A DNA stretch of 64,000 nt from Betaproteobacteria bacterium (GTDB taxonomy: Bacteria > Pseudomonadota > Gammaproteobacteria > Burkholderiales > SG8-39). Position 1 is the first letter of the stretch. Each line of letters opens with the position of its first letter. The notes beneath the pieces are model-generated. The model searched no databases and was not told where the DNA came from. It was given only the letters and a program-made list of their open reading frames with translations. Below are positions 36,717 through 55,959 of the stretch, piece after piece. The position numbers and the translations under genes were made by a program. The DNA lies in assembly GCA_004297625.1 (NCBI GenBank), contig SCTY01000028.1:8848-72847 (forward strand). The letters are read 5' to 3'.

Positions 36717-36726
36717 GGCGGCGCAC

Positions 36727-38823: not shown

Positions 38824-38912
38824 GGCTCAGGCCACCGGCACGGACTTGCCGAACTGCTCGGCGAGCAGGCTCTCGCCCTGGTCGAGGACGAAGTAGCGGA
38901 ACGACTCGGCCG

Positions 38913-39873: not shown

Positions 39874-39958
39874 TGAACAGTCCCTGGAGTGCGCGTCTGC
39901 GCTCATTTTCCCCCGGGTATTCCGAGGCGGGTTTTGATCTGGGTCATACGGCAATCTG

Positions 39959-39976
39959 ATGTTTCCATCGAAACAT
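39959..39976. promoter_or_regulatory. Palindrome in the globin/dsrE-like divergent spacer
   Basis: ATGTTTC-catc-GAAACAT with perfect 7-bp arms. Confidence 0.25.
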
Positions 39977-40032
39977 TGGTTTGACAGATGGCGCGGGCCG
40001 GCCATGATGGCGTTCTTTCCTGAGGAGGAAGC

Positions 40033-40851: not shown

Positions 40852-40856
40852 GTGCG

Positions 40857-41279: not shown

Positions 41280-41293
41280 GGCGGGCTCCCTGA

Positions 41294-42190
41294 TCAAGCA
41301 ATCGCCTGATAGTAGAGGTTCTGCGGGTGCCTTGCTTCGGCGAAGAAGTACCAGCGCTCTGCAAGCAAGCCGGCGAACTGCAAGAGGAAGGCGGGGATTG
41401 GGAAGCCCGACACGAGAAACAACGCCGGCAGTGGAAAGACGAGCGCGAGGAACGCCCAACGCGCCGCGCGTACCACTTCGCGCGGCCGGCCATGGAAGAA
41501 CTCGCGCGTATTGAACGAGCCGCCCATGGCGCCTTGCGCGATCTGCGCGATGCGCGGGTGCTTGACGCCGATCGCCGTGGCGGGAGTCGACTTGGGACGA
41601 AGGCGCGCATTGCGCGCGAGCGCGGCGAGCCGCGCAAGGTAGGCAAGCGCGCCCGCGGCGAGCGCCGCGGCAGCGTACGCCGGCGCGAGCGGCGGATGCA
41701 GCCATGCCGCCATGGCCGCGGCGGCCGTAAGGCCCGAAGCGCATCCGAGTAGCGTGTAGTTGAGCGGCGTAAGAGGTGTGTGCCACTCCTGCAGGAACTT
41801 GAGGCAGGCGTAAATCATCCCCGTGCACACGAACAACGCGATCGCCAGCATCACTGCCACAACGTTGAACCAGAGAGTTTTCATCTGAAGCCAGTGTGCG
41901 ACAGCCCATGCGAATACGGCGGCCATGAACAGCGGCAGAACGATCACCTCGCGGGAGAGCCAAGACGTACGCCACATCGCCGCCGAGCGCCACGCGCGCT
42001 CGGGATGGCCGAGGTGAAAGAAGGAGGCGACAAGCCCGCCGGCAAGCAGCACCAGCGAAACCGCCGCGCCGGCCACGAAAAAGCGTGCCGGCGCTTCGCC
42101 GAACGCGTCGGCCGCGGCCAGAGCGAGGTACAAGCCCTGCCCGGCGCCGATGAGCGTCGTAAGAAGAATCACCGACCAGGCGGGACGCAC
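41294..42190 (-). CDS. soeC: DmsC/NrfD-type membrane anchor, SoeC-like
   Basis: 298 aa with about 8 TM helices, downstream of the FeS and Mo subunits. Confidence 0.75.
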   Translation of the reverse strand: MRPAWSVILLTTLIGAGQGLYLALAAADAFGEAPARFFVAGAAVSLVLLAGGLVASFFHLGHPERAWRSAAMWRTSWLSREVIVLPLFMAAVFAWAVAHWLQMKTLWFNVVAVMLAIALFVCTGMIYACLKFLQEWHTPLTPLNYTLLGCASGLTAAAAMAAWLHPPLAPAYAAAALAAGALAYLARLAALARNARLRPKSTPATAIGVKHPRIAQIAQGAMGGSFNTREFFHGRPREVVRAARWAFLALVFPLPALFLVSGFPIPAFLLQFAGLLAERWYFFAEARHPQNLYYQAIA

Positions 42191-42193
42191 GGC

Positions 42194-42925
42194 TTACCAG
42201 CTCGTCACGTCGTCGAGCGCCGGCTCGCCGGCCGCGGGCCGCGGCAGCTTGCCGTCCACCTTGAGCGGGTTGTCTTCGCGCTGCAGCTCGTCGGGATGCA
42301 GCTTGATCGAAGTCTTGCGCCGCGGCAGGTAGTGGTTCGCCGGCTGCGTACCCCATTCGGGCATGAGCGCGTAGCCGCCCTGCTCGCGGATGGCGCGCGC
42401 GGCTTGCGAATCCGGGTCGTGGATATCGCCGAAAATGCGCGCGCTCGTCGGGCAGGCGAGCACGCAGGCGGGCTTGCGCTCGGCCTCGGGGAGCTTCCCG
42501 TCGTAGATGCGGTCGACGCACAACGTGCACTTCTTCATCACCTTCTGCTGCTCGTCGAGCTCGCGCGCGCCGTACGGGCAGGCCCACGAGCAGTACTTGC
42601 AGCCGATGCACTTGTCGTAATCGACGAGCACGATGCCGTCCTCGGCGCGCTTGTAGCTCGCGCCGGTCGGGCATACCGGCACGCACGGCGGTTCCTCGCA
42701 ATGCAGGCACGATTTCGGGAAATGCACCGTCTCGGTCTTGGGAAATTCGCCGACCTCGTAGGTCTGCACGCGGTTGAAGAACGTGCCGCTCGGCTCGGCG
42801 CCGTAGGGATTGGCGTCGGAGAGCGGACCGGCCTCGCCCGAGTGGTTCCACTGCTTGCAGCTGGTGACGCAGGCGTGGCAGCCCACGCAGACGTTGAGGT
42901 CGATCACCAAAGCGAGCTGTGTCAT
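42194..42925 (-). CDS. soeB: 4Fe-4S ferredoxin subunit (DmsB/PsrB-type), SoeB-like
   Basis: 243 aa from MTQLALVIDLNVCVGCHACVTSC with four Cys clusters. ATGA overlap with soeA. Confidence 0.85.
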   Translation of the reverse strand: MTQLALVIDLNVCVGCHACVTSCKQWNHSGEAGPLSDANPYGAEPSGTFFNRVQTYEVGEFPKTETVHFPKSCLHCEEPPCVPVCPTGASYKRAEDGIVLVDYDKCIGCKYCSWACPYGARELDEQQKVMKKCTLCVDRIYDGKLPEAERKPACVLACPTSARIFGDIHDPDSQAARAIREQGGYALMPEWGTQPANHYLPRRKTSIKLHPDELQREDNPLKVDGKLPRPAAGEPALDDVTSW

Positions 42926-45714
42926 GCCGAAACCTTTGTCAGCGTCCGGAATTGCGGCCACGCGCCCGCTTCCTCGGCGGCATAGATGCGCACGCGCACG
43001 TCGTACCAGCCCGCCTGGCCCGTAACCGGATCCGAGTTGGAGATTCGGCCGGGAAGCTCGTCCGTGATCAGGTGATTCAAGAGAAAGCCTTTGCGGGCCT
43101 CGTTGGCGTCGGGTGCGAGCGCCCATGCGCCCGGCTGCTTGCCGATCGCGTTCCAGGTCCATACGGTGCCCGGCTCCACCGCTTCGCTATGGCGGCCCAT
43201 GCAACGCACGCGGCCCCAGGGCGACTCGACCCATAGCCAGGCGCCGTCCTCGATGCCGCTCGCGCGTGCGGTGCGCGGGTTGATGAAAAGGTAGTTGTGC
43301 GTGTGGATCTGGCGCAGCCACGCGTTCTGCGAGTCCCACGAGTGGTACATCGCCATAGGCCGCTGCGTGATGGCCGTGAGCGGATAGCGCTCGAGGTCGG
43401 TCAGCTGGTGTTCCAAAGGGGAAAAATAAAAAGGCAGCGGGTCGAAATAGGTCTCTATGCGCTTCGCCAGGCGCTCGGGCGGGCGCCGGCCCGGCCATTT
43501 GCCTTGCGCGGCGAGCCGGAAACGCTGCAGCACCTCGGAATACAGATGCACGAGGATCGGCTCGCCCCAGCGGCGCAGGCGCACGCGCTGCGCCCATTCC
43601 ATGTAGCCGCGGTTCCAATTGCGCATGTAGCGATACGACGGCGGCAGCTCGTGCTTGAAGACGCAGTTGTTCTCCGCGTAGCGCGCCCATTGCTCCGGGT
43701 TCGGCTCGCCCCGCAGCGCTTTTTTGCCGTCGGTGCCGCGCCACCCGGCGAGAAAGCCGATCCCCGAGCCCGGCTCGGTCTCGTGCCGGACGATGAAGTC
43801 GGGATAATCCCTGTACTTTCTCGAGCCATCCTTGTTGGTGAAGGCGGGTAACTGCAAACGCCCGCCGAGCTCGATCAGCACTTCCTGGAACGGCTTGCAT
43901 TCGCCCAGCGGCGGCACCACCGGCACGCGTACCGAGTCCATGGGGCCGTCGAACTCCGAGATCGGCCGGTCGAGGAGCGACATGACATCGTGGCGCTCGA
44001 GGTACGTGGTGTCCGGCAGCACGAGGTCCGCGAATGCCGTCATCTCGGACTGAAACGCGTCGCACACCGCCACGAAAGGGATCTTGTATTCGCCGTCGGC
44101 GCCGCGGTCGTTCAGCATGCGCCGCACCTCCACGGTGTTCATCGTGGAGTTCCACGCCATGTTCGCCATGAAGATCATCAGCGTGTCGATCGGGTAAGGA
44201 TCGCCGCGCCAGGCGTTGGTGATGACGGTGTGCATGAGGCCATGCACCGAGAGCGGGTACTCCCAGGAGAAACCCTTGTCGACGCGCACCGGCTCGCCTT
44301 GCGCGTCGACGAAAAGGTCTTCGGGCGACCCGGGCCAGCCGAGCGCCAGGCCGCCAAGCGGCGTGTTCGGCTGCACGCCCTCGGGGCCGGTCGGCGTCTT
44401 TGCCGAAGGCGGGATGGCGCGCGGAAACGGCGCCTTGTGGCGAAAACCGCCCGGCCGGTCGATGGTGCCGAGCAGGCTCATCAGGATCGCGAGCGTGCGC
44501 ACGGTGTGGAAGCCGTTCGAGTGCGCCGCGAGACCGCGCATCGCGTGGAAGGCGACCGGATTGCCGGTCACCGTCTGGTGCTCGTTGCCCCAGCAGTCCG
44601 TCCAGGCGATCGGCAGCTCGATTTTCTCGTCTCGCGCCGTCACGCCCATCTCGTGCGCCAGGCGCCGGATGGTGGCCGCCGGGATGCCCGTAATCGGCTC
44701 GGCCCATTCGGGGGTGAGATCGCGCACGCGCTCGGCGAGCAGCTGGAACGCCGGCTGTACCCGTGTGCCGTCGGCGAGCCGGAAATCGCCGAACAGGCTC
44801 GGATCGGCCTGCGGCGTGTGGCTGAGGACCGGCCTGCCGGAATGGCGGTCCCACCACAGCTTATTTTGCGGTTGAGCCGGATTTTCGGGTTCCGCATCCT
44901 CTTCGTCGGTCGCGAGCAGGCCATGGCTCGGGGAGTGCGGATCGGCGATCACGAGGTGGCCGCCGTTCGTGTAGCGCGCCACGAACTCGCGGTCGTAGAG
45001 GCCCTGCGCGATGAGCTCGTGGACGAGCGCAAGCAGCAGCGCGCCGTCGGTGCCCGGGCGGATGGGCACCCACTCATCGGCGATTGCCGAGTAACCGGTG
45101 CGTACAGGGTTGACCGAGACGAAGCGTCCGCCCGCGCGTTTGAAACGCGAGATGGCGATCTTGAGCGGATTGGAGTGGTGGTCCTCGGCGGTGCCCAGCA
45201 TGACGAAAAGCTTCGCGCGCTCGAGGTCCGGCCCGCCGAACTCCCAGAACGAGCCGCCGATCGTGTAAATCATGCCGGCGGCCATGTTCACCGAGCAGAA
45301 GCCGCCGTGCGCGGCGTAATTCGGAGTGCCGAACTGGCGCGCGAAAAGACCGGTGAGCGCCTGCATCTGGTCGCGCCCGGTGAACAAGGCGAACTTCTTC
45401 GGGTCGTTCGACCTTATCGCCTTCAACCGGTTTTCGAGGATTGAAAAAGCTTGTTCCCAGGAAATCGGCTGGAACTCGCCCGCGCCCCTTTCGCTGCCCG
45501 GTTTTCGAAGCAATGGACGTGTCAGGCGTGCCGGCGAGAGCTGCTTCATGAGGCCGCTCGCGCCTTTGGCGCAGATCACGCCCTTGTTGAGCGGATGCTC
45601 GGGGTTGCCCTCGATGTAGCGCACGACGGCGCGCCCGTCTTTCTCATCCACGTGCACGCGGATGCCGCAGCGGCACGCGCACATGTAGCAGGTGGTCGTC
45701 TTGATCTCGGTCAA
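42922..45714 (-). CDS. soeA: Molybdopterin (bis-MGD) oxidoreductase catalytic subunit without Tat signal, SoeA-like sulfite dehydrogenase
   Basis: 930 aa. The N-terminus MTEIKTTTCYMCACRCGIRV puts the CxxCxxxC FeS motif at residue 9, so there is no twin-arginine leader and the enzyme faces the cytoplasm. TTG start. Confidence 0.8.
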   Translation of the reverse strand: MTEIKTTTCYMCACRCGIRVHVDEKDGRAVVRYIEGNPEHPLNKGVICAKGASGLMKQLSPARLTRPLLRKPGSERGAGEFQPISWEQAFSILENRLKAIRSNDPKKFALFTGRDQMQALTGLFARQFGTPNYAAHGGFCSVNMAAGMIYTIGGSFWEFGGPDLERAKLFVMLGTAEDHHSNPLKIAISRFKRAGGRFVSVNPVRTGYSAIADEWVPIRPGTDGALLLALVHELIAQGLYDREFVARYTNGGHLVIADPHSPSHGLLATDEEDAEPENPAQPQNKLWWDRHSGRPVLSHTPQADPSLFGDFRLADGTRVQPAFQLLAERVRDLTPEWAEPITGIPAATIRRLAHEMGVTARDEKIELPIAWTDCWGNEHQTVTGNPVAFHAMRGLAAHSNGFHTVRTLAILMSLLGTIDRPGGFRHKAPFPRAIPPSAKTPTGPEGVQPNTPLGGLALGWPGSPEDLFVDAQGEPVRVDKGFSWEYPLSVHGLMHTVITNAWRGDPYPIDTLMIFMANMAWNSTMNTVEVRRMLNDRGADGEYKIPFVAVCDAFQSEMTAFADLVLPDTTYLERHDVMSLLDRPISEFDGPMDSVRVPVVPPLGECKPFQEVLIELGGRLQLPAFTNKDGSRKYRDYPDFIVRHETEPGSGIGFLAGWRGTDGKKALRGEPNPEQWARYAENNCVFKHELPPSYRYMRNWNRGYMEWAQRVRLRRWGEPILVHLYSEVLQRFRLAAQGKWPGRRPPERLAKRIETYFDPLPFYFSPLEHQLTDLERYPLTAITQRPMAMYHSWDSQNAWLRQIHTHNYLFINPRTARASGIEDGAWLWVESPWGRVRCMGRHSEAVEPGTVWTWNAIGKQPGAWALAPDANEARKGFLLNHLITDELPGRISNSDPVTGQAGWYDVRVRIYAAEEAGAWPQFRTLTKVSA

Positions 45715-45795
45715 GCGCGCAATTGTCCGTACCGCGCGCTCGCGCGGCCAACGAGTTAATCTGATTTCTCCATAAGAGGCGGCGATTCACGCGCT

Positions 45796-45809
45796 CTATG
45801 CCGGCATAG
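45796..45809. promoter_or_regulatory. Perfect 14-bp palindrome in the soeA/qmoA divergent spacer
   Basis: CTATGCCGGCATAG, flanked by the imperfect outer repeats gcgattc...gaatcg. Confidence 0.4.
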
Positions 45810-45854
45810 CGAATCGTTGCCGGCGCGCAGCGCCGCCCCGAATAAAATCGAGCC

Positions 45855-47084
45855 ATGCGCGACATCGCAACGAGCCAGACGATCCTGGTGGTCGGCGGGG
45901 GCGTGAGCGGCATGACCGCTGCGCTCGAAGCCGCGGAATGCGGCAAGCAGGTGCTCCTCGTGGAGAAATCGCCGACGCTCGGCGGCCGCACCGCGCTTCT
46001 CTACCGCTACTTCCCGAAGCTCTGCCATCCGACGTGCGGGCTGGAAATCAACCTGCGCCGCCTGAAGGGCAACCGCAATGTGCGCGTGATGACGATGGCG
46101 GAGGTCGTCAGGGTCGAAGGCCGCCGCGGCGATTACAGCGTCACGCTGCGCGTCGCGCCGCGCTTCGTGAACGAAAACTGCACGGCCTGCGGCGCCTGCG
46201 CCGAGGCGGTGGGCGCCGAAATTCCGAATCCCTGGAACTACAACCTCAACCGCATGAAGGCGGCGTACCTGCCCCATGCCATGGCTTACCCGCAGCGCTA
46301 CGTGCTCGATGCGTCGATCGCCGGCACGCCGGACGCCGAGAAGGCAAGAACGGCGTGCAAGTACGGCGCCATCGATCTCGAAATGAAGGAGCAGACGCTC
46401 ACGGTGAGCGCCGGCGCGGTCGTGTGGGCGACGGGCTGGAAGCCGTATGACGCGGCCAAGATCCAGCCCTACGGCTATGGGCGCTACGCGAACGTGATTA
46501 CCAGCGTGGAATTCGAGCGCCTGGCCGATCCGCACGGCCCGACCGGCGGGCGCATCGTGCGGCCCTCCGACGGCAAGGAGGCGAAGAACATCGCCTTCAT
46601 CCAGTGCGCGGGATCGCGCGACGAGAACCATCTGCGCCACTGCTCGCGCATCTGCTGCATGGCCTCGCTCAAGCACACGCAGTTCGTGCGCGAGGCCTAC
46701 GGCGAGGCGGCGCGCTCGACGATCTACTACATCGACATCCGCGCCATCGACCGCTTCGAGGACTTCTACCGCAAGGTGCGCGCCGACCGCACCGTGAAGT
46801 TCGTGAAGTCCAAGCCGGCGCGCATCGCGGAGGACCGGGCCAGCGGCGATGTCGTGCTGCACGGTGTCGATACCGAGGGCTATCACCGCTACGCTGCGCA
46901 GCACGATCTCGCGGTGCTTGCGATCGGCATGGAGACCGCCGTGCCGCTGCCGCAGGACGCCGAAGTGTTCCCCGCGGGCTGCGCCGCCGACGCGCTCGAT
47001 GTCAACCGCTCGGTGCAAAGCTCGACCGCCGCCGCGCTGCGCGCGATCCAGGTCGTCAACCGCGCGGCCCGGGCCGAATCATGA
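45855..47084 (+). CDS. qmoA: QmoA (HdrA-like flavoprotein)
   Basis: 409 aa, ILVVGGGVSGMTAALEAAECG...CAGSRDENHLRHCSRICC. Confidence 0.85.
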   Translation: MRDIATSQTILVVGGGVSGMTAALEAAECGKQVLLVEKSPTLGGRTALLYRYFPKLCHPTCGLEINLRRLKGNRNVRVMTMAEVVRVEGRRGDYSVTLRVAPRFVNENCTACGACAEAVGAEIPNPWNYNLNRMKAAYLPHAMAYPQRYVLDASIAGTPDAEKARTACKYGAIDLEMKEQTLTVSAGAVVWATGWKPYDAAKIQPYGYGRYANVITSVEFERLADPHGPTGGRIVRPSDGKEAKNIAFIQCAGSRDENHLRHCSRICCMASLKHTQFVREAYGEAARSTIYYIDIRAIDRFEDFYRKVRADRTVKFVKSKPARIAEDRASGDVVLHGVDTEGYHRYAAQHDLAVLAIGMETAVPLPQDAEVFPAGCAADALDVNRSVQSSTAAALRAIQVVNRAARAES

Positions 47085-49246
47085 AGACCGCGGCCTATCT
47101 CTGCGGCGGCTGCGGCATCGCCGAGCAGCTCGACACCGCACGCCTTGCCGCGATCGCCGAGCGCGAGGGCAAGGTGGATCTCGTGCGCGAGCATCCGTTC
47201 CTTTGCTCGGCCGAAGGGGTGCAGGCGATCCGCGAGGGCATCGACAAAGACGGCGCCACCCACGTGATGCTCGCCGCCTGCTCGCGGCGCGCGAAAACGG
47301 AGGCCTTTTACTTCCCCGACGTCGCGGTGGCGCGCGCCAACTTGCGCGAAGGCGTGGTCTGGATCCAGGAGAAGGGAGAAGCGGCGCAAGAGATGGCCGA
47401 CGACTACGTGCGCATGGCGTGCGCGGAACTGAAGCGCATGCAGGTGCCGAAAGCCGGCCCCGACACCGGGAAGAGCAAGCGGGTGCTCGTGGTCGGCGGC
47501 GGCATTTCGGGACTGACGGCGGCGCTCGAGGCGGCCGAGGCCGGCTACGAGGCGCTCATCGTCGAGAAGGAAGCGGCGCTCGGCGGCTGGGCTGCGCGCC
47601 TGCACCGCCGCATTCCGGAGCGCGCGCCTTTCAAAGATCCCGCGGAAACGGGCGTGCCGGCGCTTGTCGATGCCGTAACTCGAAATTCAAGAATTAAACT
47701 GCAATTGGGAACCACGGTTGCGCAAACCGCGGGCGCGCCCGGGCGCTTTCGCGTCACGCTGTCCAACGGGCGAACCGAAGAGGTCGGCGCCATCGTGCAG
47801 GCGAGCGGCTTCTCGCTCTACGACGCCGCGCGCCTCGCCGAGTTCTCCTACGGAAAGTCGCCCGACATCGTGGACCAGGCGGGGCTTGAGGCATTGGCGA
47901 AAAAATCGATCCCGATTCGTCGCCCGTCGGACAACAAGGAAGTCAAGCAGGTGGTTTTCGTGCAGTGCGCGGGGCAGCGCGACGACTCGGGCAAGCACCT
48001 GCCCTACTGCTCGGGCCACTGCTGCGCCACCTCGATGAAGCAGGCGATGTACTTCAAGGACGCGAATCCGGCCGTCGACACGGTGGTGATCTACACCGAC
48101 CTGCGCGTGCCGGGGAACGGAGAAGACTTCTACCGCTCTGCGCAGGCGAAGGGCGTCACCTTCACCAAGGGCAAGGTGTCGGCTGTCGAGGCCGACGGCG
48201 CGGTGAAGTTCAGGGACCTGATCCTTGATGAGGACACTCAAATTAAAGCCGACTTGGTGGTGCTCGCGACCGGGCAGGTGCCCAATTCCGGCGTCAACAT
48301 CGACAACCCCGACGAGCCGGACGCGAACGGCGCGAAGCCGATCTCGATCCTGAACCTCGAGTACCGGCAGGGAAGCGACCTGCCGCGGCTCGCGCACGGA
48401 TTCTCCGACTCGCACTTCATCTGCTTCCCGTACGAGACGCGCCGCACCGGCATCTACACCGCCGGGCCGGTGCGCCGGCCGATGGACATCGCGCAGGCGG
48501 TGGAGGACGCGACCGGCGCCGCGCTGAAGGCGATCCAGGCGACCGAGAACGCGGCGCTCGGGCGCGCGGCGCATCCGCGCTCCGGCGACCTCTCGTTCCC
48601 GCTGGTGCGTCTCGACGGTTGCACGCAGTGCAAGCGCTGCACCGTGGAATGCCCGTTCGGCGCCATCGACGAGGACGAGAAGCGCTACCCCGTCTTCAAC
48701 GAGAGCCGCTGCCGGCGCTGCAGCACGTGCATGGGCGCCTGCCCGGTGCGCGTGATCTCCTTCGAGAACTACTCGGTGGACTCCGTCGGCGCGCAGATCA
48801 AGGCGGTCGGGATCCCCGACGAGACCGAGGAGAAGCCGCGCATCCTCATCCTCGCGTGCGAGAACGACGCCTATCCGGCGCTCGACATGGCCGGGCTGCA
48901 GCGCGTCAAGTACTCGGCCGCGGTGCGCGTGATACCGGTGCGCTGCCTCGGCTCGGTGAACCAGGTCTGGGTGACCGACGCCCTGAATGCCGGCTACGAC
49001 GGCATCATGCTGCTGGGCTGCAAGCACGGCGACGACTACCAGTGCCACTTCGTGCGCGGCTCGGCGCTCGCGGCCGAGCGCATGAGCAAGATCGACGATA
49101 CGCTGAAGCAGCTCGCGCTCGAGAACGAGCGCGTCATCACCTGCGAGGCCGCGATCACCGACATCGCGAGGCTGCCGCGCCTGATCGACGAGTACGCGCA
49201 GACCATCGAGCGCATCGGCCTTTCGCCGCTCAAGGGGTTCGCATGA
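47081..49246 (+). CDS. qmoB: QmoB (HdrA-like flavoprotein with ferredoxin and MvhD-like C-terminal domains)
   Basis: 721 aa, VLVVGGGISGLTAALEAAEAG...CAGQRDDSGKHLPYCSGHCC...CTQCKRCTVECP...CRRCSTCMGACP...ILILACENDAYPALD. ATGA overlap with qmoA. Confidence 0.85.
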   Translation: MKTAAYLCGGCGIAEQLDTARLAAIAEREGKVDLVREHPFLCSAEGVQAIREGIDKDGATHVMLAACSRRAKTEAFYFPDVAVARANLREGVVWIQEKGEAAQEMADDYVRMACAELKRMQVPKAGPDTGKSKRVLVVGGGISGLTAALEAAEAGYEALIVEKEAALGGWAARLHRRIPERAPFKDPAETGVPALVDAVTRNSRIKLQLGTTVAQTAGAPGRFRVTLSNGRTEEVGAIVQASGFSLYDAARLAEFSYGKSPDIVDQAGLEALAKKSIPIRRPSDNKEVKQVVFVQCAGQRDDSGKHLPYCSGHCCATSMKQAMYFKDANPAVDTVVIYTDLRVPGNGEDFYRSAQAKGVTFTKGKVSAVEADGAVKFRDLILDEDTQIKADLVVLATGQVPNSGVNIDNPDEPDANGAKPISILNLEYRQGSDLPRLAHGFSDSHFICFPYETRRTGIYTAGPVRRPMDIAQAVEDATGAALKAIQATENAALGRAAHPRSGDLSFPLVRLDGCTQCKRCTVECPFGAIDEDEKRYPVFNESRCRRCSTCMGACPVRVISFENYSVDSVGAQIKAVGIPDETEEKPRILILACENDAYPALDMAGLQRVKYSAAVRVIPVRCLGSVNQVWVTDALNAGYDGIMLLGCKHGDDYQCHFVRGSALAAERMSKIDDTLKQLALENERVITCEAAITDIARLPRLIDEYAQTIERIGLSPLKGFA

Positions 49247-49264
49247 TGCTGACAGCAGGCCGTT

Positions 49265-49374
49265 GCCCCCCTGACAAGGGGGGAGCGAGCGTTTTCTGCG
49301 AGCGGGGGGTTTGCATTTCGCGAAAACCAACCCCCCGTTCGCCTTCGGCTCACGCCCCCCTTGACAGGGGGGCG
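49265..49374 (+). repeat. ~110-bp three-hairpin intergenic repeat element, copy B (qmoB-hdrC spacer)
   Basis: Hairpins are CCCCCC-tgacaa-GGGGGG, gcgagcggggggtt...aaccccccgttcgc and CGCCCCCC-ttgaca-GGGGGGCG. It has the same orientation relative to transcription as copy A. Confidence 0.85.
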
Positions 49375-49391
49375 GCAGCGCAGGTGTATCC

Positions 49392-49991
49392 ATGAGCGCC
49401 TACCAGGGCGACTTCCTCAAGGAAGTCGAGGCCCGCGTCGAGGAAGGCGAATGGGTGAAGATGTGCATGCAGTGCGGCGTGTGCGCCGGCTCGTGCCCCT
49501 TCGGCCCGCACTGGGAGCATTCGCCGCAGAAGATCTTCATGATGATCCGCGCGGGCAAGCGCGAGGAGGTGCTCACCTCGGATGCGATGTGGATGTGCAC
49601 CTCCTGCTACAACTGCGTGGTGCGCTGCCCGCGCAAGCTGCCGATCACGCAGATCATGCATGGGCTCGCGACCTATGCCCATCGCCTGGGCCTCGCGCCG
49701 AAAATGCAGCCGACGCGGCGCTTCTCGGTCACGTTCTGGAGCAACCTCACCCGCACCGGGCGCGTGAACGAGTTGAAGCTCGTCCTCCAGGTCTATTTCC
49801 GCAACGGGTTCGCCGCAGGCCTCAAGGAGTTCTGGAACATGCGGCGCGTCGGGCTGCGGCTGCTCGCCGCGAAGCGCATGAACCCGTTCGAGCTCGTCTT
49901 TCCGCACCGCTGCAAGGACGCGAAGGGCATCCAGCGCATGCTCGCGAAAGCCTGCGAGATCGAGAACCGCAAGCGAGGATTCAGCCAATGA
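49392..49991 (+). CDS. hdrC: HdrC-like iron-sulfur protein (replaces QmoC)
   Basis: 199 aa with the motifs CMQCGVCAGSCP and CTSCYNCVVRCP. Confidence 0.85.
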   Translation: MSAYQGDFLKEVEARVEEGEWVKMCMQCGVCAGSCPFGPHWEHSPQKIFMMIRAGKREEVLTSDAMWMCTSCYNCVVRCPRKLPITQIMHGLATYAHRLGLAPKMQPTRRFSVTFWSNLTRTGRVNELKLVLQVYFRNGFAAGLKEFWNMRRVGLRLLAAKRMNPFELVFPHRCKDAKGIQRMLAKACEIENRKRGFSQ

Positions 49992-50902
49992 AGAAGGAAT
50001 ACGCGTTCTACCCCGGTTGCTCCTCGCAACTGCGCGGTTCGGCGTCGAACTACCTCACCAGCGTCAACAGCATGTGCCAGACGCTCGAGGTGAAGATGAC
50101 GCCGATCCCGGACTGGAACTGCTGCGGCGCCTCGATCGGCTACGCCGGCTCGGGAGAGCTCGCGCGGCACGTGATGAACGCCCGCAATTTCGCGCTCTCG
50201 GAAAAGCACCTGCCCGGGCAGGACGTCGTCGCGACCTGCGCCGCGTGCTGGCTCGGCGCCAAGGAAACCAAGCAGAAGCTCGACGCGAGCCGCGCCTTGA
50301 TGGAGGATACCAACGAGGCGTTGAAGGAAGCGGGGCTGCGCTACGAGGCGAAGACCGAGGTGCGCCACATGGTCGAGGTCCTGATCGAGGACATCGGCTA
50401 CGAGGAGATCCGCAAGCACGTCGTGAAGCCCCTCGAGGGCATCAAGTTCGCCGGCTACGTCGGCTGCCAGACCAACCGGCCGTTCGGCATCGCCGGCGAG
50501 TCGTTCGAGAACCCGATGTACCTGGACAAGCTCGTCGAGACCGTCGGCGGCGAGGCGCTCGTCAAGTACGAGCAGAAAGTCGCCTGCTGCGGCGGCGCGC
50601 TGGCGTTTTCCGAGCCCGACAAGAGCCAGAAGCAGATCAAGGAGATCGTCGAGGCGGCGTACGACCAGGGCGCCGACATGATCGTCACGCCCTGCCCGCT
50701 GTGCCAGGCCAACGTCGAGATCTACCAGGCCGAGATCAACCGCAAGCAGGGCACCAAGCTCGACATGCCGGTGATGTACTACTCGCAACTCCTCGCGGTG
50801 GCTTACGGCGCGGCGCCGAAGCAGGCGGGGCTCGACGGCCACGTGATCCAGCCGAAGAAGCTGCAGGACATCGCCGTCAAGGTCGTGCCGGCCAGGAAGT
50901 AG
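49988..50902 (+). CDS. hdrB: HdrB-like protein (two CCG domains)
   Basis: 304 aa, YPGCSS...NCCGASIG...ACCGGALAF...CPLCQ. ATGA overlap with hdrC. Confidence 0.85.
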   Translation: MKKEYAFYPGCSSQLRGSASNYLTSVNSMCQTLEVKMTPIPDWNCCGASIGYAGSGELARHVMNARNFALSEKHLPGQDVVATCAACWLGAKETKQKLDASRALMEDTNEALKEAGLRYEAKTEVRHMVEVLIEDIGYEEIRKHVVKPLEGIKFAGYVGCQTNRPFGIAGESFENPMYLDKLVETVGGEALVKYEQKVACCGGALAFSEPDKSQKQIKEIVEAAYDQGADMIVTPCPLCQANVEIYQAEINRKQGTKLDMPVMYYSQLLAVAYGAAPKQAGLDGHVIQPKKLQDIAVKVVPARK

Positions 50903-51238
50903 CGCGCTTCAACCCGCCGCTATCAAGCGCGGAATGTGCTGGGGACAATTGAGATCCCAGGCGTCAATGCTGAACACGATGGCGAATTCCGCAGCGCGTG
51001 ATGGTTACGCGCGTTACGCATCGGACCTACTGAGTCTCCATCAGTGTGTGTTGTCTGCTTTACGCTCCGGCTCAGGATGTTATGAGGAGCTTGCTCGACC
51101 AGTAGGCACCGCGTAGGCGGCGCAGACGGAAATCCAAAGCGTGGTGCAATTGATTGCACCGGCACCCAGCTTATGGATGCCTACGTCCTGCCTGCGGTCG
51201 GCCGCTCTGCTCGGATAAACGGACGAACGTAAGAGAAA

Positions 51239-52405
51239 TCAAATAAGCGCCCTTCCTCGTAGGTCTTTCCTCCGATCCACAGAAATGCCAAGTTCCTGCA
51301 GCACCTCGTCCGTGTGCTCGCCGAGATCCGGAGGCGGCCGTAATTGCGCTTCACGCTCGCCATCGAAGCGTAACGGTCGCCGCATGCCCCTGACCTCGCC
51401 GTGGACACCATGCAGTGACTTAAACAGTAAATTGAGGTGGCGTACCTGCGGATCGTCAAAGAGCTCATTCACCCGGCGTTCAGGCGCAAACGGTACGTCG
51501 TTCGCTTCAAGTACTTGCATCCATTCGTCTCGATTACGCTTGCGGAATATTCCGGCCAGCTCCTTTGCGATGTCCTCATAGCGCGAGATCCGAGCCCTGC
51601 GATCCGGATATTTCTGAAGGAAGTCAGGCCGCTCAATTGCTTTTGCGAGCGATTCCCAGAACTTGTTCGGTGACGAAAGTTGAAGGCCTATTCGTTTGCC
51701 ATCCCTGCATTCAAGCAAATAAGCCTGGGAAGTCGCACCCCGGGAATACTGGGTGGGAGCTTGGCCGGTCGCGAGATATTGGCCGATTGGTTCAGCCCCA
51801 AAAGCCATGGTGGCTTCCAGCATGCTGGTGTCCACCCTTCGCCCAACACCACTCTTTTCGCGATCAAACAGCGCGGCGAGAATGCCCAGGCAGGCGAAGA
51901 GCCCCGTAAGTGCATCTGAAACGGCTGGTCCGGCGACTCTCGGATCGCTTCCGTCATGAAAGAGTGAGAGCCAGCCACTCAATGTCTGGCCAACATTGTC
52001 ATACGCCGGCCTGGATGCATAAGGGCCATCGAAACCGAATCCCGTAATGGAGCAGTACACGAGCCGCTGATTGACCCCATGGAGTCGATCGTAGTCGACC
52101 CCCAGTTTTTCTGACACGCCAGGCCGATTGTTGAGAATGACCACATCCGCGTTGCTGACCAGCTTGTGCAATATTTCGAGGCCTTCAGGCTTCGAATAAT
52201 CCAGCGCGAGGCTTCGCTTGTGCCGGTTATATGACTGGAAATGAGGGCTATAAAGTCCGCCCTCAAAGGAGCGGAACGGATCACCGGTCCCGGGACGCTC
52301 GACCTTGACAACGTCCGCGCCCAGCTCGGCCAACAACATCGCTGCATAAGGCGCAGTAATGAAATTCCCGAGGTCTATTACCCGAATGCTGTGGAGAACA
52401 TTCAT
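51239..52405 (-). CDS. Family-III (CaiB/BaiF) CoA-transferase
   Basis: 388 aa, IRVIDLGNFITAPYAAMLLAELGADVVKVERPGTGDP... Confidence 0.9.
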   Translation of the reverse strand: MNVLHSIRVIDLGNFITAPYAAMLLAELGADVVKVERPGTGDPFRSFEGGLYSPHFQSYNRHKRSLALDYSKPEGLEILHKLVSNADVVILNNRPGVSEKLGVDYDRLHGVNQRLVYCSITGFGFDGPYASRPAYDNVGQTLSGWLSLFHDGSDPRVAGPAVSDALTGLFACLGILAALFDREKSGVGRRVDTSMLEATMAFGAEPIGQYLATGQAPTQYSRGATSQAYLLECRDGKRIGLQLSSPNKFWESLAKAIERPDFLQKYPDRRARISRYEDIAKELAGIFRKRNRDEWMQVLEANDVPFAPERRVNELFDDPQVRHLNLLFKSLHGVHGEVRGMRRPLRFDGEREAQLRPPPDLGEHTDEVLQELGISVDRRKDLRGRALI

Positions 52406-52417
52406 GATTTTTCCTAT

Positions 52418-53884
52418 CTAATTGCCTTCCTTACCGGCAATAAGCACAGAACCCGCGCCTTTCCGCACGTAGACATATGCGGGCCTTTTCTGCCTGGTCA
52501 AACCGTTAATCAACCCCTGCAGGTCTCGCGTCCCGTCAGAGCTCCGGCTTTGTGACCGTTCTGCGCGCATGGTAATGACCTCCTCCTTGCCGGCGACATA
52601 ACGAAGCAAGAGCTCGTCGTCCGAGATGTTCGAATCGCCATATTGTTCGCGCATTTCCGCCAGCGTCGGCTGAGGAGGTTGCCAGCGCGCGAGTTCGTCA
52701 GCGCGAGATCGGCGAAGAATGACATCCTTGATGGTCGGATCTATGGCATCACTTTCCTCTTCACCCCAGTGACCTAGGGCGTACTGGATGATCTCATCAG
52801 TGACTGTCTTGTATCGCTCCCCGGCCACTACATTTATGGCTGCCTGAACGCCGACATACTGCGAGTACGGCGTCACCATGATGGGATAGCCAAGATCCTC
52901 TCTTACTCTGGCAGTCTCCTTCAGCACTTCGTCAAGCTTGTTACCCAAGCCAGCACTTGCCAGTTGATGCCTGAGATTTGAGATCATGCCGCCGGGAACT
53001 TGATGAATAAATTGCTCATGGTCGTATGGCGCAGGGACACCAAGAGGCAATCCCTCTTGAATCGCAACGGAAGTGAGATGCTTCTCGACTGCTTTAATTG
53101 CGTCTTCATCAACTGATGACGAGTAACCGAGCGCCCTCGCATTCTTGACAATGTTCAAGATTGAGGGATTGGACGATCCGTCGGCAAGCGGTGGAATCGC
53201 AGTATTTATGTGCCGTATACCAAGCTTGATGGCCTCGAGACAGCAAAGAGGTCCGAGGCCAGTATGGCAATGAGTATGGAATTCAAGCGGGATTCCGTTG
53301 ACGTTCTTGAGGACCACCGGGACCAGAGTCCGTGTTCTTTCTGGTGTAAGCAAACTGCCGGGATCCTTGATGCAAATTCGGACAACGTCGAGCTTTGCCG
53401 CTTCCCTGGCCTTCTCGGCGTAGTACTCATCCGTGTGCTTTGGGGAATACGTATATATAAGGTTCAGGATAGGTGCGATTCCAACTTTCCGCGCCTGCCC
53501 GACGAGATAGCGCCATCGAGCGACCGTATTGGATGGATCTGCGAGGCGCGCTTCGCGTATTCCATGAGCAGCAATCCTCTTCCACCAGATTTCATCAATG
53601 GAGAGTGGGGTAATCTGAAAAGCCGCCAGGTAGCGGCTTCGGATCATGCGAAGCGGCGTCTTCTTGACCCGTTCTCCTACGAGATCAATTCTTTCCCAGG
53701 AGTCCTCGCCTAGCTCACGGACTATTTTCTTATCGAAGTTTGTGGCAAGAATTTCTATCGCCACGAATCCGGCTTCATCCATGTAGCTTGCGACGGCCAA
53801 CATCATCTCCGTCCTCATCCCGGTTGCCCATAGACTCATCTGCCCATCGCGAAGCGTGGTATCGATGTACGTGATATCCGGCAT
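52418..53884 (-). CDS. Carboxyltransferase subunit of a biotin-dependent 2-oxoacid carboxylase/decarboxylase (PycB/OadA 5S-type), no BCCP domain
   Basis: 488 aa, ITYIDTTLRDGQMSLWATGM...LEFHTHCHTGLG (HMGL-like TIM barrel plus PYC_OADA). The C-terminus carries no biotinyl domain. Confidence 0.85.
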   Translation of the reverse strand: MPDITYIDTTLRDGQMSLWATGMRTEMMLAVASYMDEAGFVAIEILATNFDKKIVRELGEDSWERIDLVGERVKKTPLRMIRSRYLAAFQITPLSIDEIWWKRIAAHGIREARLADPSNTVARWRYLVGQARKVGIAPILNLIYTYSPKHTDEYYAEKAREAAKLDVVRICIKDPGSLLTPERTRTLVPVVLKNVNGIPLEFHTHCHTGLGPLCCLEAIKLGIRHINTAIPPLADGSSNPSILNIVKNARALGYSSSVDEDAIKAVEKHLTSVAIQEGLPLGVPAPYDHEQFIHQVPGGMISNLRHQLASAGLGNKLDEVLKETARVREDLGYPIMVTPYSQYVGVQAAINVVAGERYKTVTDEIIQYALGHWGEEESDAIDPTIKDVILRRSRADELARWQPPQPTLAEMREQYGDSNISDDELLLRYVAGKEEVITMRAERSQSRSSDGTRDLQGLINGLTRQKRPAYVYVRKGAGSVLIAGKEGN

Positions 53885-53932
53885 GGCGGTTATTGCGCAG
53901 CTCCTGTCAGGGCACCGTGTGCGTGATTCCGA

Positions 53933-55291
53933 TCAGCCCGCAGGCATTTCGGGCATCAGCGCCTCGACGAGTCTGGTGCTGACCCGGCCCGATTCAAACT
54001 CGGGATGCCCGACCACGAAACGCAGGAATTCCAGAGTTGTACCGACGCCGGCAACCACAAAGTGATCGAGCGCCCATCGCATCCGCTGGAGTGCTTCGCC
54101 TCGATCTGCTCCGTGGACGATCAGCTTTGCCAACAGTGAATCGTAGTGTGGAGGCACCGTATAGCCCGCATAACAGTGTGTATCCAGCCTGACGTGCGCC
54201 CCTTCCGGTGGCACCCAAGTGCCGATCCGGCCAGGACATGGACGAAAATTTTCTTTGGGTATTTCTGCGTTTATTCGGCACTCAATGGCGTGACCACTGA
54301 ACCTCACATCCGACTGCTTAAAGCGTAGGGCGTCGCCGCCCGCCACACGAATCTGTTCCTGAACCAGGTCGATCCCAGTGATCATTTCAGTGACCGGATG
54401 CTCGACTTGGATGCGTGTGTTCATTTCGAGAAAATGAAACGTTTTCGCATCCTGATCCAGAACAAATTCAACGGTTCCGGCATTCTCGTACTGCATTTCC
54501 CGGGCGAGCGTGACTCCGGCCTCGTGAATCCGTTCCCTAAGTCGTTCATCAATTCCGGGCGCTGGTGTCTCCTCGATAAGCTTCTGGTGTCGCCGCTGCA
54601 GTGAACAATCCCGCTCGCCCAGATGGATCACATTGCTGTATCGATCACCGAAAACCTGTACCTCGATGTGGCGTGCATTCGGGATAAATCGCTCGACGTA
54701 GAGCGAGTCGTCACCAAACGCTGCACGTGCCTCAGCAGCTGCCGATTCAAACGCTCGTTGCAGGTCTGCGGCGTTTGTAACCACCTTCATACCGCGGCCT
54801 CCTCCGCCTGCGGCCGCCTTGATCATTACAGGCAACCCAACCTTCTCGGCAATTGTCAAAGCGTGCTTGTACGAGAAGAACTTTTCCGACCCGGGAAGAA
54901 CGGGCAAGCCGTAACGATCGGCAAGTGTCCGGGCAAGGACCTTGTTGCCCATAACTCGGATCTGCTCGGGAGTCGGACCGATAAACGTAATACCTGCTGA
55001 GCGACACGCCTGAGCAAGCTCAGCGGACTCGGCGAGAAATCCATAACCCGGATGGATTGCATCTGATCCGGTGCCGAGAGCCGACGCGACGATGGCCTTG
55101 ATGTTCAGATAGCTGTCCGCCGCCCTTGCGGGGCCAATACACACAGTACGACCGGCCATCCTGCTCGGAAGGCTGTCGCGATCAGCCTCGGAAATCGCAA
55201 GTACCGTATCAATTCCAAGTGCCTGGCAGGCCGTAATGATTCGAACGGCAATTTCGCCCCGATTGGCAACAAGGACGCGCGATATGCTCAT
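53933..55291 (-). CDS. Biotin carboxylase subunit
   Basis: 452 aa with an ATP-grasp fold, MSISRVLVANRGEIAVRII...GGGGRGMKVV...EMNTRIQVEHPVTE. Confidence 0.92.
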   Translation of the reverse strand: MSISRVLVANRGEIAVRIITACQALGIDTVLAISEADRDSLPSRMAGRTVCIGPARAADSYLNIKAIVASALGTGSDAIHPGYGFLAESAELAQACRSAGITFIGPTPEQIRVMGNKVLARTLADRYGLPVLPGSEKFFSYKHALTIAEKVGLPVMIKAAAGGGGRGMKVVTNAADLQRAFESAAAEARAAFGDDSLYVERFIPNARHIEVQVFGDRYSNVIHLGERDCSLQRRHQKLIEETPAPGIDERLRERIHEAGVTLAREMQYENAGTVEFVLDQDAKTFHFLEMNTRIQVEHPVTEMITGIDLVQEQIRVAGGDALRFKQSDVRFSGHAIECRINAEIPKENFRPCPGRIGTWVPPEGAHVRLDTHCYAGYTVPPHYDSLLAKLIVHGADRGEALQRMRWALDHFVVAGVGTTLEFLRFVVGHPEFESGRVSTRLVEALMPEMPAG

Positions 55292-55319
55292 GTGGTTCGT
55301 TCGCCAGCTCGAGCCGCGC

Positions 55320-55823
55320 TCAGCGGCTTGGTCGCACTCTCATAAGAACGGCGCCATATTCAACGAACTGCTCATCCTTGGCGCAGATCTCCACAATCAC
55401 ACCACTTGCTGCGGCCGGAACCGCGGTGAATACCTTCATTACTTCAATGAGTCCAACTGTCGACTCGGCAGTCACCTCTGAGCCAACCGAGACAAAGGGG
55501 GGCGCCTTCGGCTCGGGTCTTGTATAGAAACGCCCGACCATGGGAGCCTTGACATCGAGGAGTCCATCTGCGGGCGCTTTCTCCTGCACGCCATGGGCTA
55601 TGCCGTCGGCCAAAGCGGGAGTCGACCCGCCTGTCTGCTCGGCAACATCAGCTTCGGGAGCTGCCACGTCCAATGTAGCTGGCATGGTTCCCTTGCCAAT
55701 GGTTACCTGCATCTGCCCGGCCCTGATCTGCAAAAAATCGAACGTCGAGCGATCGAGTATTTGAACCAGTCGGGCAATTTTCTGGATTTCCTCGTCGCTA
55801 AGCAGATCGCGTTGGTCGGTCAC
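55320..55823 (-). CDS. Stand-alone biotin carboxyl carrier protein
   Basis: The C-terminal biotinyl domain reads ...VGLIEVMKVFTAVPAAASGVIVEI. GTG 55823 with an AAGGGA RBS is preferred; the alternative is GTG 55886. Confidence 0.8.
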   Translation of the reverse strand: MTDQRDLLSDEEIQKIARLVQILDRSTFDFLQIRAGQMQVTIGKGTMPATLDVAAPEADVAEQTGGSTPALADGIAHGVQEKAPADGLLDVKAPMVGRFYTRPEPKAPPFVSVGSEVTAESTVGLIEVMKVFTAVPAAASGVIVEICAKDEQFVEYGAVLMRVRPSR

Positions 55824-55959
55824 TTTACGTTTCCCTTTGTGTCCGAGGAAACGACTTCCGTCTCCTCGTCGCTCCGCTGACTCCACTGCCCAGCGGGAGA
55901 ATCATTTCTCATAGCCGCTTCGCCGCTGACACGTTCCGTCCATTCGTTCGAGTTGAGCT

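What the first reader, a model, noticed from the sequence alone, without database searches (positions are those of the whole stretch)
45855..50902. qmoAB-hdrCB (no qmoC, no membrane anchor) without aprBA/sat, paired head-to-head with soeABC
QmoA (409 aa) and QmoB (721 aa, with ferredoxin and MvhD-like domains) are followed by soluble HdrC- and HdrB-like genes instead of the membrane haem-b/FeS protein QmoC. That variant is known mainly from some Gram-positive sulfate reducers. Qmo normally partners APS reductase, but no aprBA or sat lies within at least 5 kb on either side. Instead the operon is divergent from the direct sulfite dehydrogenase genes. Three explanations are open. The apr/sat genes may lie elsewhere. 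This Qmo-HdrCB complex may serve a different partner such as sHdr, Soe or a thiol/disulfide or persulfide carrier. It may also perform a flavin-based confurcation or bifurcation step in sulfur oxidation.
Basis: partly seen in the sequence, partly recalled or inferred. Interest (0 to 1): 0.6.

Follow-up and report, generated by a model that had tools for sequence, protein, structure and literature searches.

The report
Sulfur-oxidizer QmoAB-HdrCB electron-transfer operon
This is an ordinary copy of a soluble four-protein electron-transfer operon (QmoAB-HdrCB, also called HdrAACB) already catalogued in many sulfur-oxidizing bacteria; sitting away from the APS reductase genes is the usual situation, not an anomaly.

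Summary
Four co-directional genes at 45855-50902 encode QmoA (409 aa), QmoB (721 aa, with ferredoxin and MvhD domains), HdrC (199 aa) and HdrB (304 aa). None has a membrane segment and there is no qmoC. They lie 140 bp head-to-head with soeABC-like genes. No aprA, aprB or sat match exists anywhere in the 64 kb window.

The interpretation overstates the oddity. This cassette is the known HdrAACB/QmoAB-HdrCB module of beta- and gammaproteobacterial sulfur oxidizers. More than 564 loci in species-representative genomes encode a relative, and all 80 examined keep the gene order. The literature treats it as the electron partner of lineage-II AprBA and reports it unlinked from aprBA in Thiobacillus denitrificans and strain Hiromi 1.

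Of 51 relatives with at least 8 kb downstream, only 9 have aprA nearby. Of 57 with enough upstream DNA, 13 have soeA; five loci have both.

The genes are under purifying selection and every cofactor cysteine is invariant. The most likely reading is the ordinary APS-pathway module with aprBA and sat encoded elsewhere.

The window also holds a complete sHdr-LbpA cluster. It is therefore a mosaic sulfur-oxidation island.

The parts
45855..47084 (+). qmoA: HdrA-type FAD subunit, 409 aa, soluble
   Evidence: It matches the HdrA2 model over residues 3-362 (E 8e-102) and PDB 5odc_A residues 141-497 (E 2e-73). The HdrA signature cysteines C251/C263/C267/C268 and six further Cys are invariant in 74/74 homologues. 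dN/dS against L081 is 0.16.
47081..49246 (+). qmoB: second HdrA-type FAD subunit fused to a 2x[4Fe-4S] ferredoxin domain and an MvhD-like domain, 721 aa, soluble
   Evidence: Pfam hits are FlpD (residues 588-713, E 1e-37), Fer4_9 (514-558) and Pyr_redox_2. PDB matches are HdrA plus separate MvhD chains. Twenty-one of its 23 Cys are invariant in 80/80 homologues, and one more is kept in 78/80. Homologues at 72-90% identity are named QmoB by JGI.
49247..49391 (+). qmoB-hdrC intercistronic gap holding a ~115-nt palindromic, REP/MITE-like element
   Evidence: As RNA it folds at -91.5 kcal/mol (z = -6.6). A second copy (~87% identity), in the same orientation relative to transcription, lies between shdrB1 and shdrA at 28420-28535. 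It is present in L081 and L082. The other 80 loci have gaps of roughly 20-165 bp at this position (a few longer) and none matched the element. No Rfam match.
49392..49991 (+). hdrC: 2x[4Fe-4S] subunit, 199 aa, with no transmembrane or haem-b part
   Evidence: It matches TIGR03290 HdrC (1.6e-24) and only positions 4-91 of the 360-position QmoC model. Its maximum 19-residue hydropathy is 0.73.
49988..50902 (+). hdrB: catalytic subunit with two CCG motifs, 304 aa
   Evidence: Pfam CCG hits twice. It matches TIGR03288 (3.8e-49) and full-length PDB HdrB chains. The ten motif Cys are invariant in 67/67 homologues.
45715..45854 (.). 140-bp divergent control region between soeA and qmoA
   Evidence: The region is only partly conserved in L081, where a 33-nt stretch containing the palindrome CTATGCCGGCATAG is absent. 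No sigma-70 consensus was found.
41294..45714 (-). soeCBA-like cytoplasmic sulfite:quinone dehydrogenase genes, transcribed divergently
   Evidence: Domains are shown. SoeA starts MTEIKTTTCYMC with no twin-arginine signal. Homologues are named SoeA. The same divergent placement occurs in 13 related loci.

Best explanation
This is the sulfur-oxidizer form of the Qmo complex (QmoAB-HdrCB, also called HdrAACB). It is a soluble cytoplasmic flavin and iron-sulfur electron-transfer complex.

Shown here: QmoA and QmoB are two HdrA-type FAD subunits. QmoB adds a ferredoxin domain and an MvhD-like [2Fe-2S] domain. HdrC supplies two [4Fe-4S] clusters. HdrB supplies the two CCG-motif sites that in methanogen HdrB bind the non-cubane clusters acting on a disulfide/thiol couple. 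The genes are intact, translationally coupled in pairs and under purifying selection.

Inferred: the complex accepts the two electrons released when APS reductase (lineage-II AprBA) oxidizes sulfite plus AMP to APS, probably through the MvhD-like domain. By analogy, MvhD links the hydrogenase to HdrA in methanogens. Because QmoC is missing, the electrons would not go directly to quinone. They would go through HdrCB to a disulfide or thiol carrier, possibly with flavin-based bifurcation or confurcation.

Also inferred: aprBA and sat are encoded elsewhere in this genome. The operon sits next to soeABC because both pathways dispose of the cytoplasmic sulfite made by the sHdr system encoded 15 kb upstream.
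For: Architecture and cofactor motifs are intact, there is no membrane segment, and dN/dS is 0.10-0.36 against a 93%-identical relative.

The four-gene order is kept in all 80 related loci wherever the contig allows. These come from Thiobacillus, Sulfuricella, Sideroxydans, Gallionellaceae, Rhodocyclaceae, Acidiferrobacteraceae and sponge symbionts.

sat-aprBA lies convergent about 1-7 kb downstream of hdrB in L011, L014, L018, L025, L038, L050, L059, L060, L067 and L070. Five of these also have the divergent soeABC.

A proton-pumping pyrophosphatase lies upstream in L009, L012, L015, L016, L017 and L019. This fits a PPi-consuming Sat step.

Literature: AprM or HdrAACB are named as the electron-transfer partners of AprBA (PMC5024460, PMC11294248). 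AprA clades track the presence of QmoAB-HdrBC (PMC10504309, supplementary discussion). An unlinked qmoAB-hdrBC is reported in strain Hiromi 1 and T. denitrificans (PMC4136832).
Against: No aprA, aprB or sat is present in 64 kb, nor within 10 kb in the three closest accessible relatives L081, L083 and L084. The rest of the genome could not be read.

No experiment on a sulfur-oxidizer QmoAB-HdrCB was found in the papers searched. Its coupling to Apr rests on co-occurrence, synteny and analogy with QmoABC of sulfate reducers (PMC3333476). The HdrB substrate is unknown.
Confidence: 0.72

Rival explanations
1. This lineage has lost or never had aprBA and sat. The complex would then work with another partner in the same island. 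One option is re-oxidizing or reducing the lipoate-binding protein or DsrE/TusA persulfide carriers of the sHdr system. Another is coupling SoeABC-linked sulfite oxidation to NAD(P)+ or ferredoxin reduction by flavin-based bifurcation.
For: No apr/sat is found in the window or within 10 kb in the nearest relatives. The window combines a complete sHdr-LbpA cluster, soeABC and this operon within 31 kb. DsrE-, CsoR- and thioredoxin-like genes recur near the cassette in L007, L049, L063, L064, L070, L076, L083 and L084. soeABC adjacency (13 loci) is at least as frequent as apr adjacency. Sulfuriferula genomes with sHdr and Soe lack both the apr genes and hdrAACB (PMC11294248).
Against: None of the 85 related loci has sHdr genes within about 9 kb, so the sHdr proximity is particular to this genome. 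It follows a synteny break at 38913. SoeABC is a self-sufficient quinone reductase with its own anchor. The published correlation is with AprBA clades (PMC10504309 supplement). In the literature found, sHdr-only organisms that lack apr also lack this cassette (Sulfuriferula, PMC11294248).
Confidence: 0.13
2. It is a general HdrABC-like thiol/disulfide oxidoreductase. It would maintain a cytoplasmic thiol pool or reduce ferredoxin, and would be recruited into sulfur islands without a dedicated link to sulfite oxidation.
For: The closest solved structures are methanogen HdrABC-MvhD bifurcating complexes. In 24 of 39 fully flanked loci neither soe nor apr is nearby. The most frequent upstream neighbours are a YfcE-like phosphodiesterase (40 loci) and a GvpN-like AAA ATPase (18 loci), which have no obvious sulfur role.
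Against: In the sample examined, the family comes overwhelmingly from lineages labelled as sulfur oxidizers. The only recurrent metabolic neighbours are sat-aprBA, soeABC, dsr genes and the pyrophosphatase.
Confidence: 0.12
3. It is a decaying remnant left after loss of the apr-sat arm.
For: The downstream flank is rearranged by a ~9.9 kb low-GC insertion.
Against: All four reading frames are intact. dN/dS is 0.10-0.36 and every cofactor cysteine is retained. The relative L081 lacks the insertion and also has no apr remnant.
Confidence: 0.03

Closest known systems
HdrAACB / QmoAB-HdrCB of sulfur-oxidizing Beta- and Gammaproteobacteria (Thiobacillus denitrificans, Sulfuricaulis limicola SCL_2520-2523, Sulfuritalea hydrogenivorans, strain Hiromi 1)
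   Same: It has the same four genes in the same order, the same domain architecture and no QmoC. QmoB is 66% identical to that of Thiobacillus thioparus DSM 505 (L036). Like these systems it is often unlinked from aprBA (PMC4136832).
   Different: Nothing essential differs. The local peculiarities are the immediate (140 bp) head-to-head junction with soeA, the palindromic element between qmoB and hdrC, and co-residence with an sHdr cluster.
QmoABC of sulfate reducers and Chlorobi (Desulfovibrio, Archaeoglobus, Chlorobaculum)
   Same: QmoA and QmoB have the same architecture. The presumed role is electron exchange with AprBA, for which a direct interaction was shown in Desulfovibrio (PMC3333476).
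   Different: QmoC is a membrane haem-b protein with an FeS domain. Here it is replaced by soluble HdrC and HdrB, so there is no quinone site. The physiological direction here is oxidative.
QmoAB-HdrBC / QmoAB-HdrD of Gram-positive sulfate reducers (Desulfotomaculum and relatives)
   Same: Both lack QmoC and have HdrBC-type subunits in its place (PMC3333476, PMC10504309).
   Different: Those organisms reduce sulfate. According to PMC10504309 their AprA and Qmo proteins form clades separate from the sulfur-oxidizer ones. No phylogeny was built here.
Methanogen HdrABC-MvhAGD (PDB 5ODC, 7BKB, 8RVU)
   Same: These are the best structural homologues for every subunit. The FAD, HdrA-signature cluster, MvhD [2Fe-2S] and HdrB CCG motifs are all conserved.
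   Different: HdrA is split and duplicated into QmoA and QmoB, and MvhD is fused to QmoB. No hydrogenase is present, and the substrate cannot be CoM-S-S-CoB.
sHdr (sulfur-oxidizing heterodisulfide-reductase-like complex, shdrC1B1AHC2B2)
   Same: It uses Hdr-type subunits and occurs in the same organism, in fact in this window at 24.9-31 kb.
   Different: It is a different paralogous system. sHdrA is a short FAD protein (PDB 6TJR-like), there are two HdrB/C pairs, it depends on LbpA, and it has no MvhD or ferredoxin fusion.

Membership tests
QmoAB-HdrCB (HdrAACB) of sulfur oxidizers | Gene order qmoA-qmoB-hdrC-hdrB with no qmoC | tested here: met
   Searches show this for the window. The same order is kept in all 80 related loci where the contig allows.
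QmoAB-HdrCB (HdrAACB) of sulfur oxidizers | QmoB architecture: N-terminal 4-Cys domain, FAD core with the HdrA signature cluster, a 2x[4Fe-4S] ferredoxin domain and a C-terminal MvhD-like domain. QmoA has the FAD core only. | tested here: met
   Pfam, NCBIfam and PDB matches support it, and the cysteines are invariant.
QmoAB-HdrCB (HdrAACB) of sulfur oxidizers | Soluble HdrC (2x[4Fe-4S]) and HdrB (two CCG motifs), with no transmembrane segment | tested here: met
QmoAB-HdrCB (HdrAACB) of sulfur oxidizers | Sequence relatedness to recognised members | tested here: met
   QmoB is 66-67% identical to the Thiobacillus loci L016, L036 and L037. Homologues at 72-90% identity are named QmoB by JGI. 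No formal tree with sulfate-reducer QmoB or archaeal HdrA outgroups was built.
QmoAB-HdrCB (HdrAACB) of sulfur oxidizers | Co-occurrence with lineage-II aprBA and sat in the same genome | not testable with these tools
   Both are absent from the 64 kb window. The source contig (380,326 bp, P0121 and P0241) is not in the contig index.
QmoAB-HdrCB (HdrAACB) of sulfur oxidizers | Physical or functional coupling to AprBA | not testable with these tools
   This needs biochemistry or genetics. The only support is synteny with sat-aprBA in 10 relatives.
Canonical QmoABC | QmoC subunit with a haem-b transmembrane domain | tested here: not met
   HdrC matches only positions 4-91 of the 360-position QmoC model. 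It has no hydrophobic segment and no further gene follows hdrB in the operon.
SoeABC (neighbouring operon) | A three-subunit Mo-bisPGD enzyme: large subunit without a Tat signal, a 4-cluster FeS subunit and an NrfD/DmsC-type anchor, with homologues annotated as SoeA | tested here: met
   No comparison with Allochromatium vinosum Alvin_2489-2491 was possible.

The most novel reading that the evidence does not exclude
This betaproteobacterial lineage (the window and GCA_040960765.1) may have no APS reductase or ATP sulfurylase at all. It would then keep QmoAB-HdrCB under purifying selection for an Apr-independent task in an sHdr-plus-Soe sulfur oxidizer. A candidate task is a flavin-based bifurcating link between a thiol/persulfide carrier (LbpA, DsrE or TusA) and NAD(P)+ or ferredoxin.
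Probability: 0.12. Interest if true: 0.6.

Novelty: new member of a known kind. Interest (0 to 1): 0.25.

Why it matters
As it stands, this mainly corrects an impression. The QmoC-less Qmo-Hdr cassette is a common, already named part of proteobacterial sulfur oxidation, and its distance from aprBA carries little information.

What remains open for the whole family is untested biochemistry: where the electrons from sulfite/APS go without a quinone-binding subunit, and what HdrB acts on.

The recurrent soeCBA / qmoAB-hdrCB / aprAB-sat supercluster seen in relatives suggests that the direct and indirect sulfite-oxidation routes are inherited, and probably regulated, together. This genome would become a useful test case only if a complete assembly showed that aprBA and sat are truly absent.

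Tried and rejected
1. I tried to locate the source genome in order to look for aprBA and sat. Exact look-ups of QmoB, HdrB, QmoA and the 100%-identical ValRS (P0121) all returned 'not on record'. A protein search with AprA was rejected. AprA is 86-93% identical across these lineages and only 120 hits are listed. The chance of recognising this genome's copy was judged to be a few per cent.

2. I tried to count qmo/apr co-occurrence from the per-genome table of PMC10504309. The stored rows are truncated, so counts would be unreliable.

3. I looked for a shared operator in the soeA-qmoA gap. The perfect palindrome CTATGCCGGCATAG is unique in the window and lies in a 33-nt stretch absent from L081, so it is not conserved. 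No sigma-70 consensus was found.

4. I considered whether the C6-TTGACA-G6 hairpins could be CsoR-type operators. The CsoR-DsrE2 intergenic region instead carries TATAC-N-GTATA-type palindromes. The hairpins are the arms of a 115-nt palindromic repeat, so a REP/MITE-like element is the simpler reading.

5. An Rfam scan of 45000-51500 gave only one sub-threshold chance match.

6. A greedy ORF caller failed in this 66% GC DNA. It was replaced by tblastn with window proteins and clustering of all ORFs.


Full report
**What is in the sequence**

The window is about 66% G+C up to 51 kb. Between 45855 and 50902 there are four co-directional genes on the plus strand:
- qmoA, 45855-47084, 409 aa.
- qmoB, 47081-49246, 721 aa, with an ATGA overlap onto qmoA.
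- hdrC, 49392-49991, 199 aa.
- hdrB, 49988-50902, 304 aa, with an ATGA overlap onto hdrC.

QmoA and QmoB match the FAD core of archaeal HdrA/HdrA2 (E 8e-102 and 5.5e-113). QmoB also has a 2x[4Fe-4S] ferredoxin domain and a C-terminal FlpD/MvhD domain (E 1e-37). HdrC matches the HdrC model and only the N-terminal FeS portion of the QmoC model (positions 4-91 of 360). HdrB has two CCG domains.

None of the four proteins has a hydrophobic stretch compatible with a membrane helix. The neighbouring SoeC, used as a control, has many.

The divergent operon at 41294-45714 on the minus strand encodes a Tat-less molybdopterin subunit, a four-cluster FeS subunit and a DmsC/NrfD-type anchor. Close homologues of the large subunit are annotated as SoeA.

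tblastn with AprA, AprB and Sat recovered from a related locus (identified) finds nothing in the entire window. The apr/sat-free zone is wider than stated.

**How common the cassette is**

The best 80 come from several groups:
- Thiobacillus, Sulfuricella, Sulfurimicrobium, Sideroxydans and Gallionellaceae.
- Rhodocyclaceae, Sulfuritalea and Burkholderiales.
- Acidiferrobacteraceae, Sulfurifustaceae, Thioploca and Marithrix.
- Sponge symbionts.

Wherever the contig is long enough, all 80 have qmoA-qmoB-hdrC-hdrB in this order, at 58-87% identity to the window proteins. The large protein collection holds 7989 relatives at E<=1e-20. Many of those at 72-90% identity are named QmoB.

Across 67-80 homologues every cofactor-binding cysteine is invariant:
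- The HdrA signature cluster in both QmoA and QmoB.
- The N-terminal four-Cys site of QmoB.
- The eight ferredoxin Cys and the four MvhD Cys of QmoB.
- The ten CCG-motif Cys of HdrB.

Against a 93%-identical relative (L081, GCA_040960765.1), dN/dS is 0.10-0.36 for all four genes and for soeABC. The operon is functional and conserved.

**What the literature says**

The cassette has a name. Watanabe et al. 2019 (PMC6397845) list 'HdrAACB/QmoABHdrCB' among the standard sulfur-oxidation proteins screened in 82 beta- and gammaproteobacterial sulfur oxidizers.

[quoted passage not shown] PMC11294248 pairs aprM with aprBA-I and hdrAACB with aprBA-II.

Neukirchen et al. [quoted passage not shown] They also write that AprA from sulfur oxidizers with QmoAB-HdrBC forms its own clade.

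[quoted passage not shown] It notes the same organisation in Thiobacillus denitrificans.

Separation from aprBA is a documented, normal state.

**Genomic context in relatives**

I clustered all ORFs of the 80 loci and annotated the recurrent neighbours. I then mapped them by tblastn.
- Of 51 loci with at least 8 kb downstream of hdrB, nine have aprA there. It is always convergent and sits with aprB and sat where the contig continues.
- Of 57 loci with at least 6 kb upstream, 13 have soeA. Twelve of these have it divergent from qmoA.
- Of 39 loci with both flanks, five have both, two have only apr, eight have only soe and 24 have neither. Fisher p is 0.03, uncorrected for phylogeny.
- A proton-pumping pyrophosphatase lies upstream in six loci labelled Thiobacillus, Sulfuricella, Sulfurimicrobium, Gammaproteobacteria or Proteobacteria. 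This fits a PPi-dependent Sat step.
- L084 has dsrLJOPN downstream.

The cassette therefore sits in sulfur-oxidation islands of variable composition. A soeCBA / qmoAB-hdrCB / aprAB-sat supercluster exists in loci labelled Rubrivivax, Rhodocyclaceae and Betaproteobacteria (L014, L018, L025, L038, L070). The window shows the soe and qmo-hdr parts of that layout.

The immediate 140-bp junction is particular to this lineage; L081 has 98 bp. Other loci have 0.8-3.4 kb of small genes in between.

**The flanks of the window**

Downstream of hdrB, G+C falls to about 0.55. The genes there are an unrelated catabolic set:
- A family III CoA-transferase.
- Carboxylase subunits.
- An ornithine-cyclodeaminase-like protein.
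- An ABC transporter.
- An IclR regulator.

L081 is collinear with the window from 38913 to 50992 and again from 60862 to 64000. It has only about 0.65 kb in between. The window therefore carries a ~9.9 kb insertion here, and there is no apr or sat remnant in either genome.

Upstream, collinearity ends at 38913, inside a truncated class-II aldolase gene. L081 has FBPase-PRK-FBA at that point. The window has a FadL-like porin, a DsrE2-like protein, a CsoR-family repressor and then a complete sHdr-LbpA cluster at 19.9-36 kb.

The sHdr proximity that might suggest a functional link is thus the product of a local rearrangement. None of the 85 related loci has sHdr genes within about 9 kb of the cassette.

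**Mechanism**

The nearest solved structures for every subunit are the methanogen HdrABC-MvhAGD complexes. QmoA corresponds to HdrA residues 141-497. QmoB corresponds to HdrA plus a fused MvhD.

The conserved motifs imply a chain of redox centres. It runs from an MvhD-like [2Fe-2S] entry point, through two flavins and several [4Fe-4S] clusters, to HdrC and the HdrB sites that act on a disulfide/thiol couple. That much is read from the sequence.

The most likely physiological role is inferred from synteny, the published AprA/Qmo co-variation and the demonstrated QmoABC-AprAB interaction in Desulfovibrio (PMC3333476). On this reading the complex takes the electrons from AprBA-catalysed sulfite oxidation to APS. 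Without QmoC, the acceptor is probably a cytoplasmic disulfide or a bifurcation partner rather than quinone. This last step is untested in any sulfur oxidizer, as far as the papers I read show.

I put 0.72 on this reading, with aprBA and sat elsewhere in the genome. I put about 0.13 on an Apr-independent role in a genome that lacks apr. About 0.12 goes to a general thiol/disulfide role, and about 0.03 to decay.

**What could not be settled**

Whether this genome has aprBA and sat remains open. The window comes from an NCBI MAG labelled 'Betaproteobacteria bacterium' with a 380,326-bp contig (100% matches P0121 and P0241). That contig is not in the retrievable index, and no further genome scan was available.

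**Verdict**

However, it is a further member of a well-known, widespread kind, in a typical context. Interest is low to moderate (0.25). It would rise only if a complete genome showed that apr and sat are absent.

Noticed in passing
window 49262-49378 (+) and 28420-28535 (element on the - strand); L081 12187-12303: A ~115-nt palindromic element with C6-TTGACA-G6 hairpin arms occurs twice in the window. Both copies lie inside sulfur operons (the qmoB-hdrC gap and the shdrB1-shdrA gap) and share the same orientation relative to transcription. They are ~87% identical. The core motif has 3 hits against 0 expected. As RNA the element folds at -91.5 kcal/mol (z = -6.6). There is no Rfam family. It is probably a REP/MITE-like repeat and might act as an intra-operon attenuator or stabiliser.
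   Followed up: partly
window 19992-36178: A complete sHdr-LbpA sulfur-oxidation cluster is present. It includes a lipoate-protein ligase (19992-21899 +), a YeeE/YedE-type sulfur transporter (22278-23411 -), LbpA (24113-24598 -) and shdrB2, C2, A, B1 and C1 (24923-31000 -). It also has a DsrE-like gene (30631-31011 -), a GATase-like gene, two radical-SAM genes, a geranylgeranyl-reductase-like FAD gene and a deacetylase-like gene. The organism is therefore an sHdr-plus-Soe type sulfur oxidizer.
   Followed up: partly
window 50992-60862: A ~9.9 kb insertion with lower G+C (0.55 against 0.66) is absent from the 93%-identical relative L081. It carries a family III CoA-transferase, carboxylase subunits, a biotin carrier, an ornithine-cyclodeaminase-like gene, an NMT1-type ABC transporter and an IclR regulator.
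   Followed up: partly
window 38824-39400; L081 1225-2265: The class-II fructose-bisphosphate aldolase gene looks truncated and internally deleted compared with L081. In L081 it follows FBPase and phosphoribulokinase (a cbb operon). Synteny with L081 starts only at window 38913, so the sHdr island abuts a broken Calvin-cycle operon.
   Followed up: partly
window 41294-50902 vs L081 4250-13822: Synonymous divergence is very uneven along the cluster. dS is 0.02-0.11 for soeB, soeA, qmoA, hdrC and hdrB, but 0.36 for soeC and qmoB. This suggests recombination between related lineages within the island.
   Followed up: no
window 36441-37467: A CsoR/CstR-family repressor is divergent from a DsrE2-like gene. 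The intergenic region carries TATAC-N-GTATA-type palindromes (36728-36745 and about 36822-36838), which are plausible operators of a persulfide-sensing regulator. DsrE2-like genes recur near soe and qmo in ten or more related loci, and a CsoR-like gene was seen near the cassette in L001 and L084.
   Followed up: no
L009, L012, L015, L016, L017, L019 (upstream of qmoA): A membrane proton- or sodium-translocating pyrophosphatase lies a few kb upstream of qmoA in loci labelled Thiobacillus, Sulfuricella, Sulfurimicrobium, Gammaproteobacteria or Proteobacteria. A YfcE-like phosphodiesterase lies directly upstream of qmoA in about 40 loci, and a GvpN-like AAA ATPase in about 18. None of these is present in the window.
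   Followed up: no
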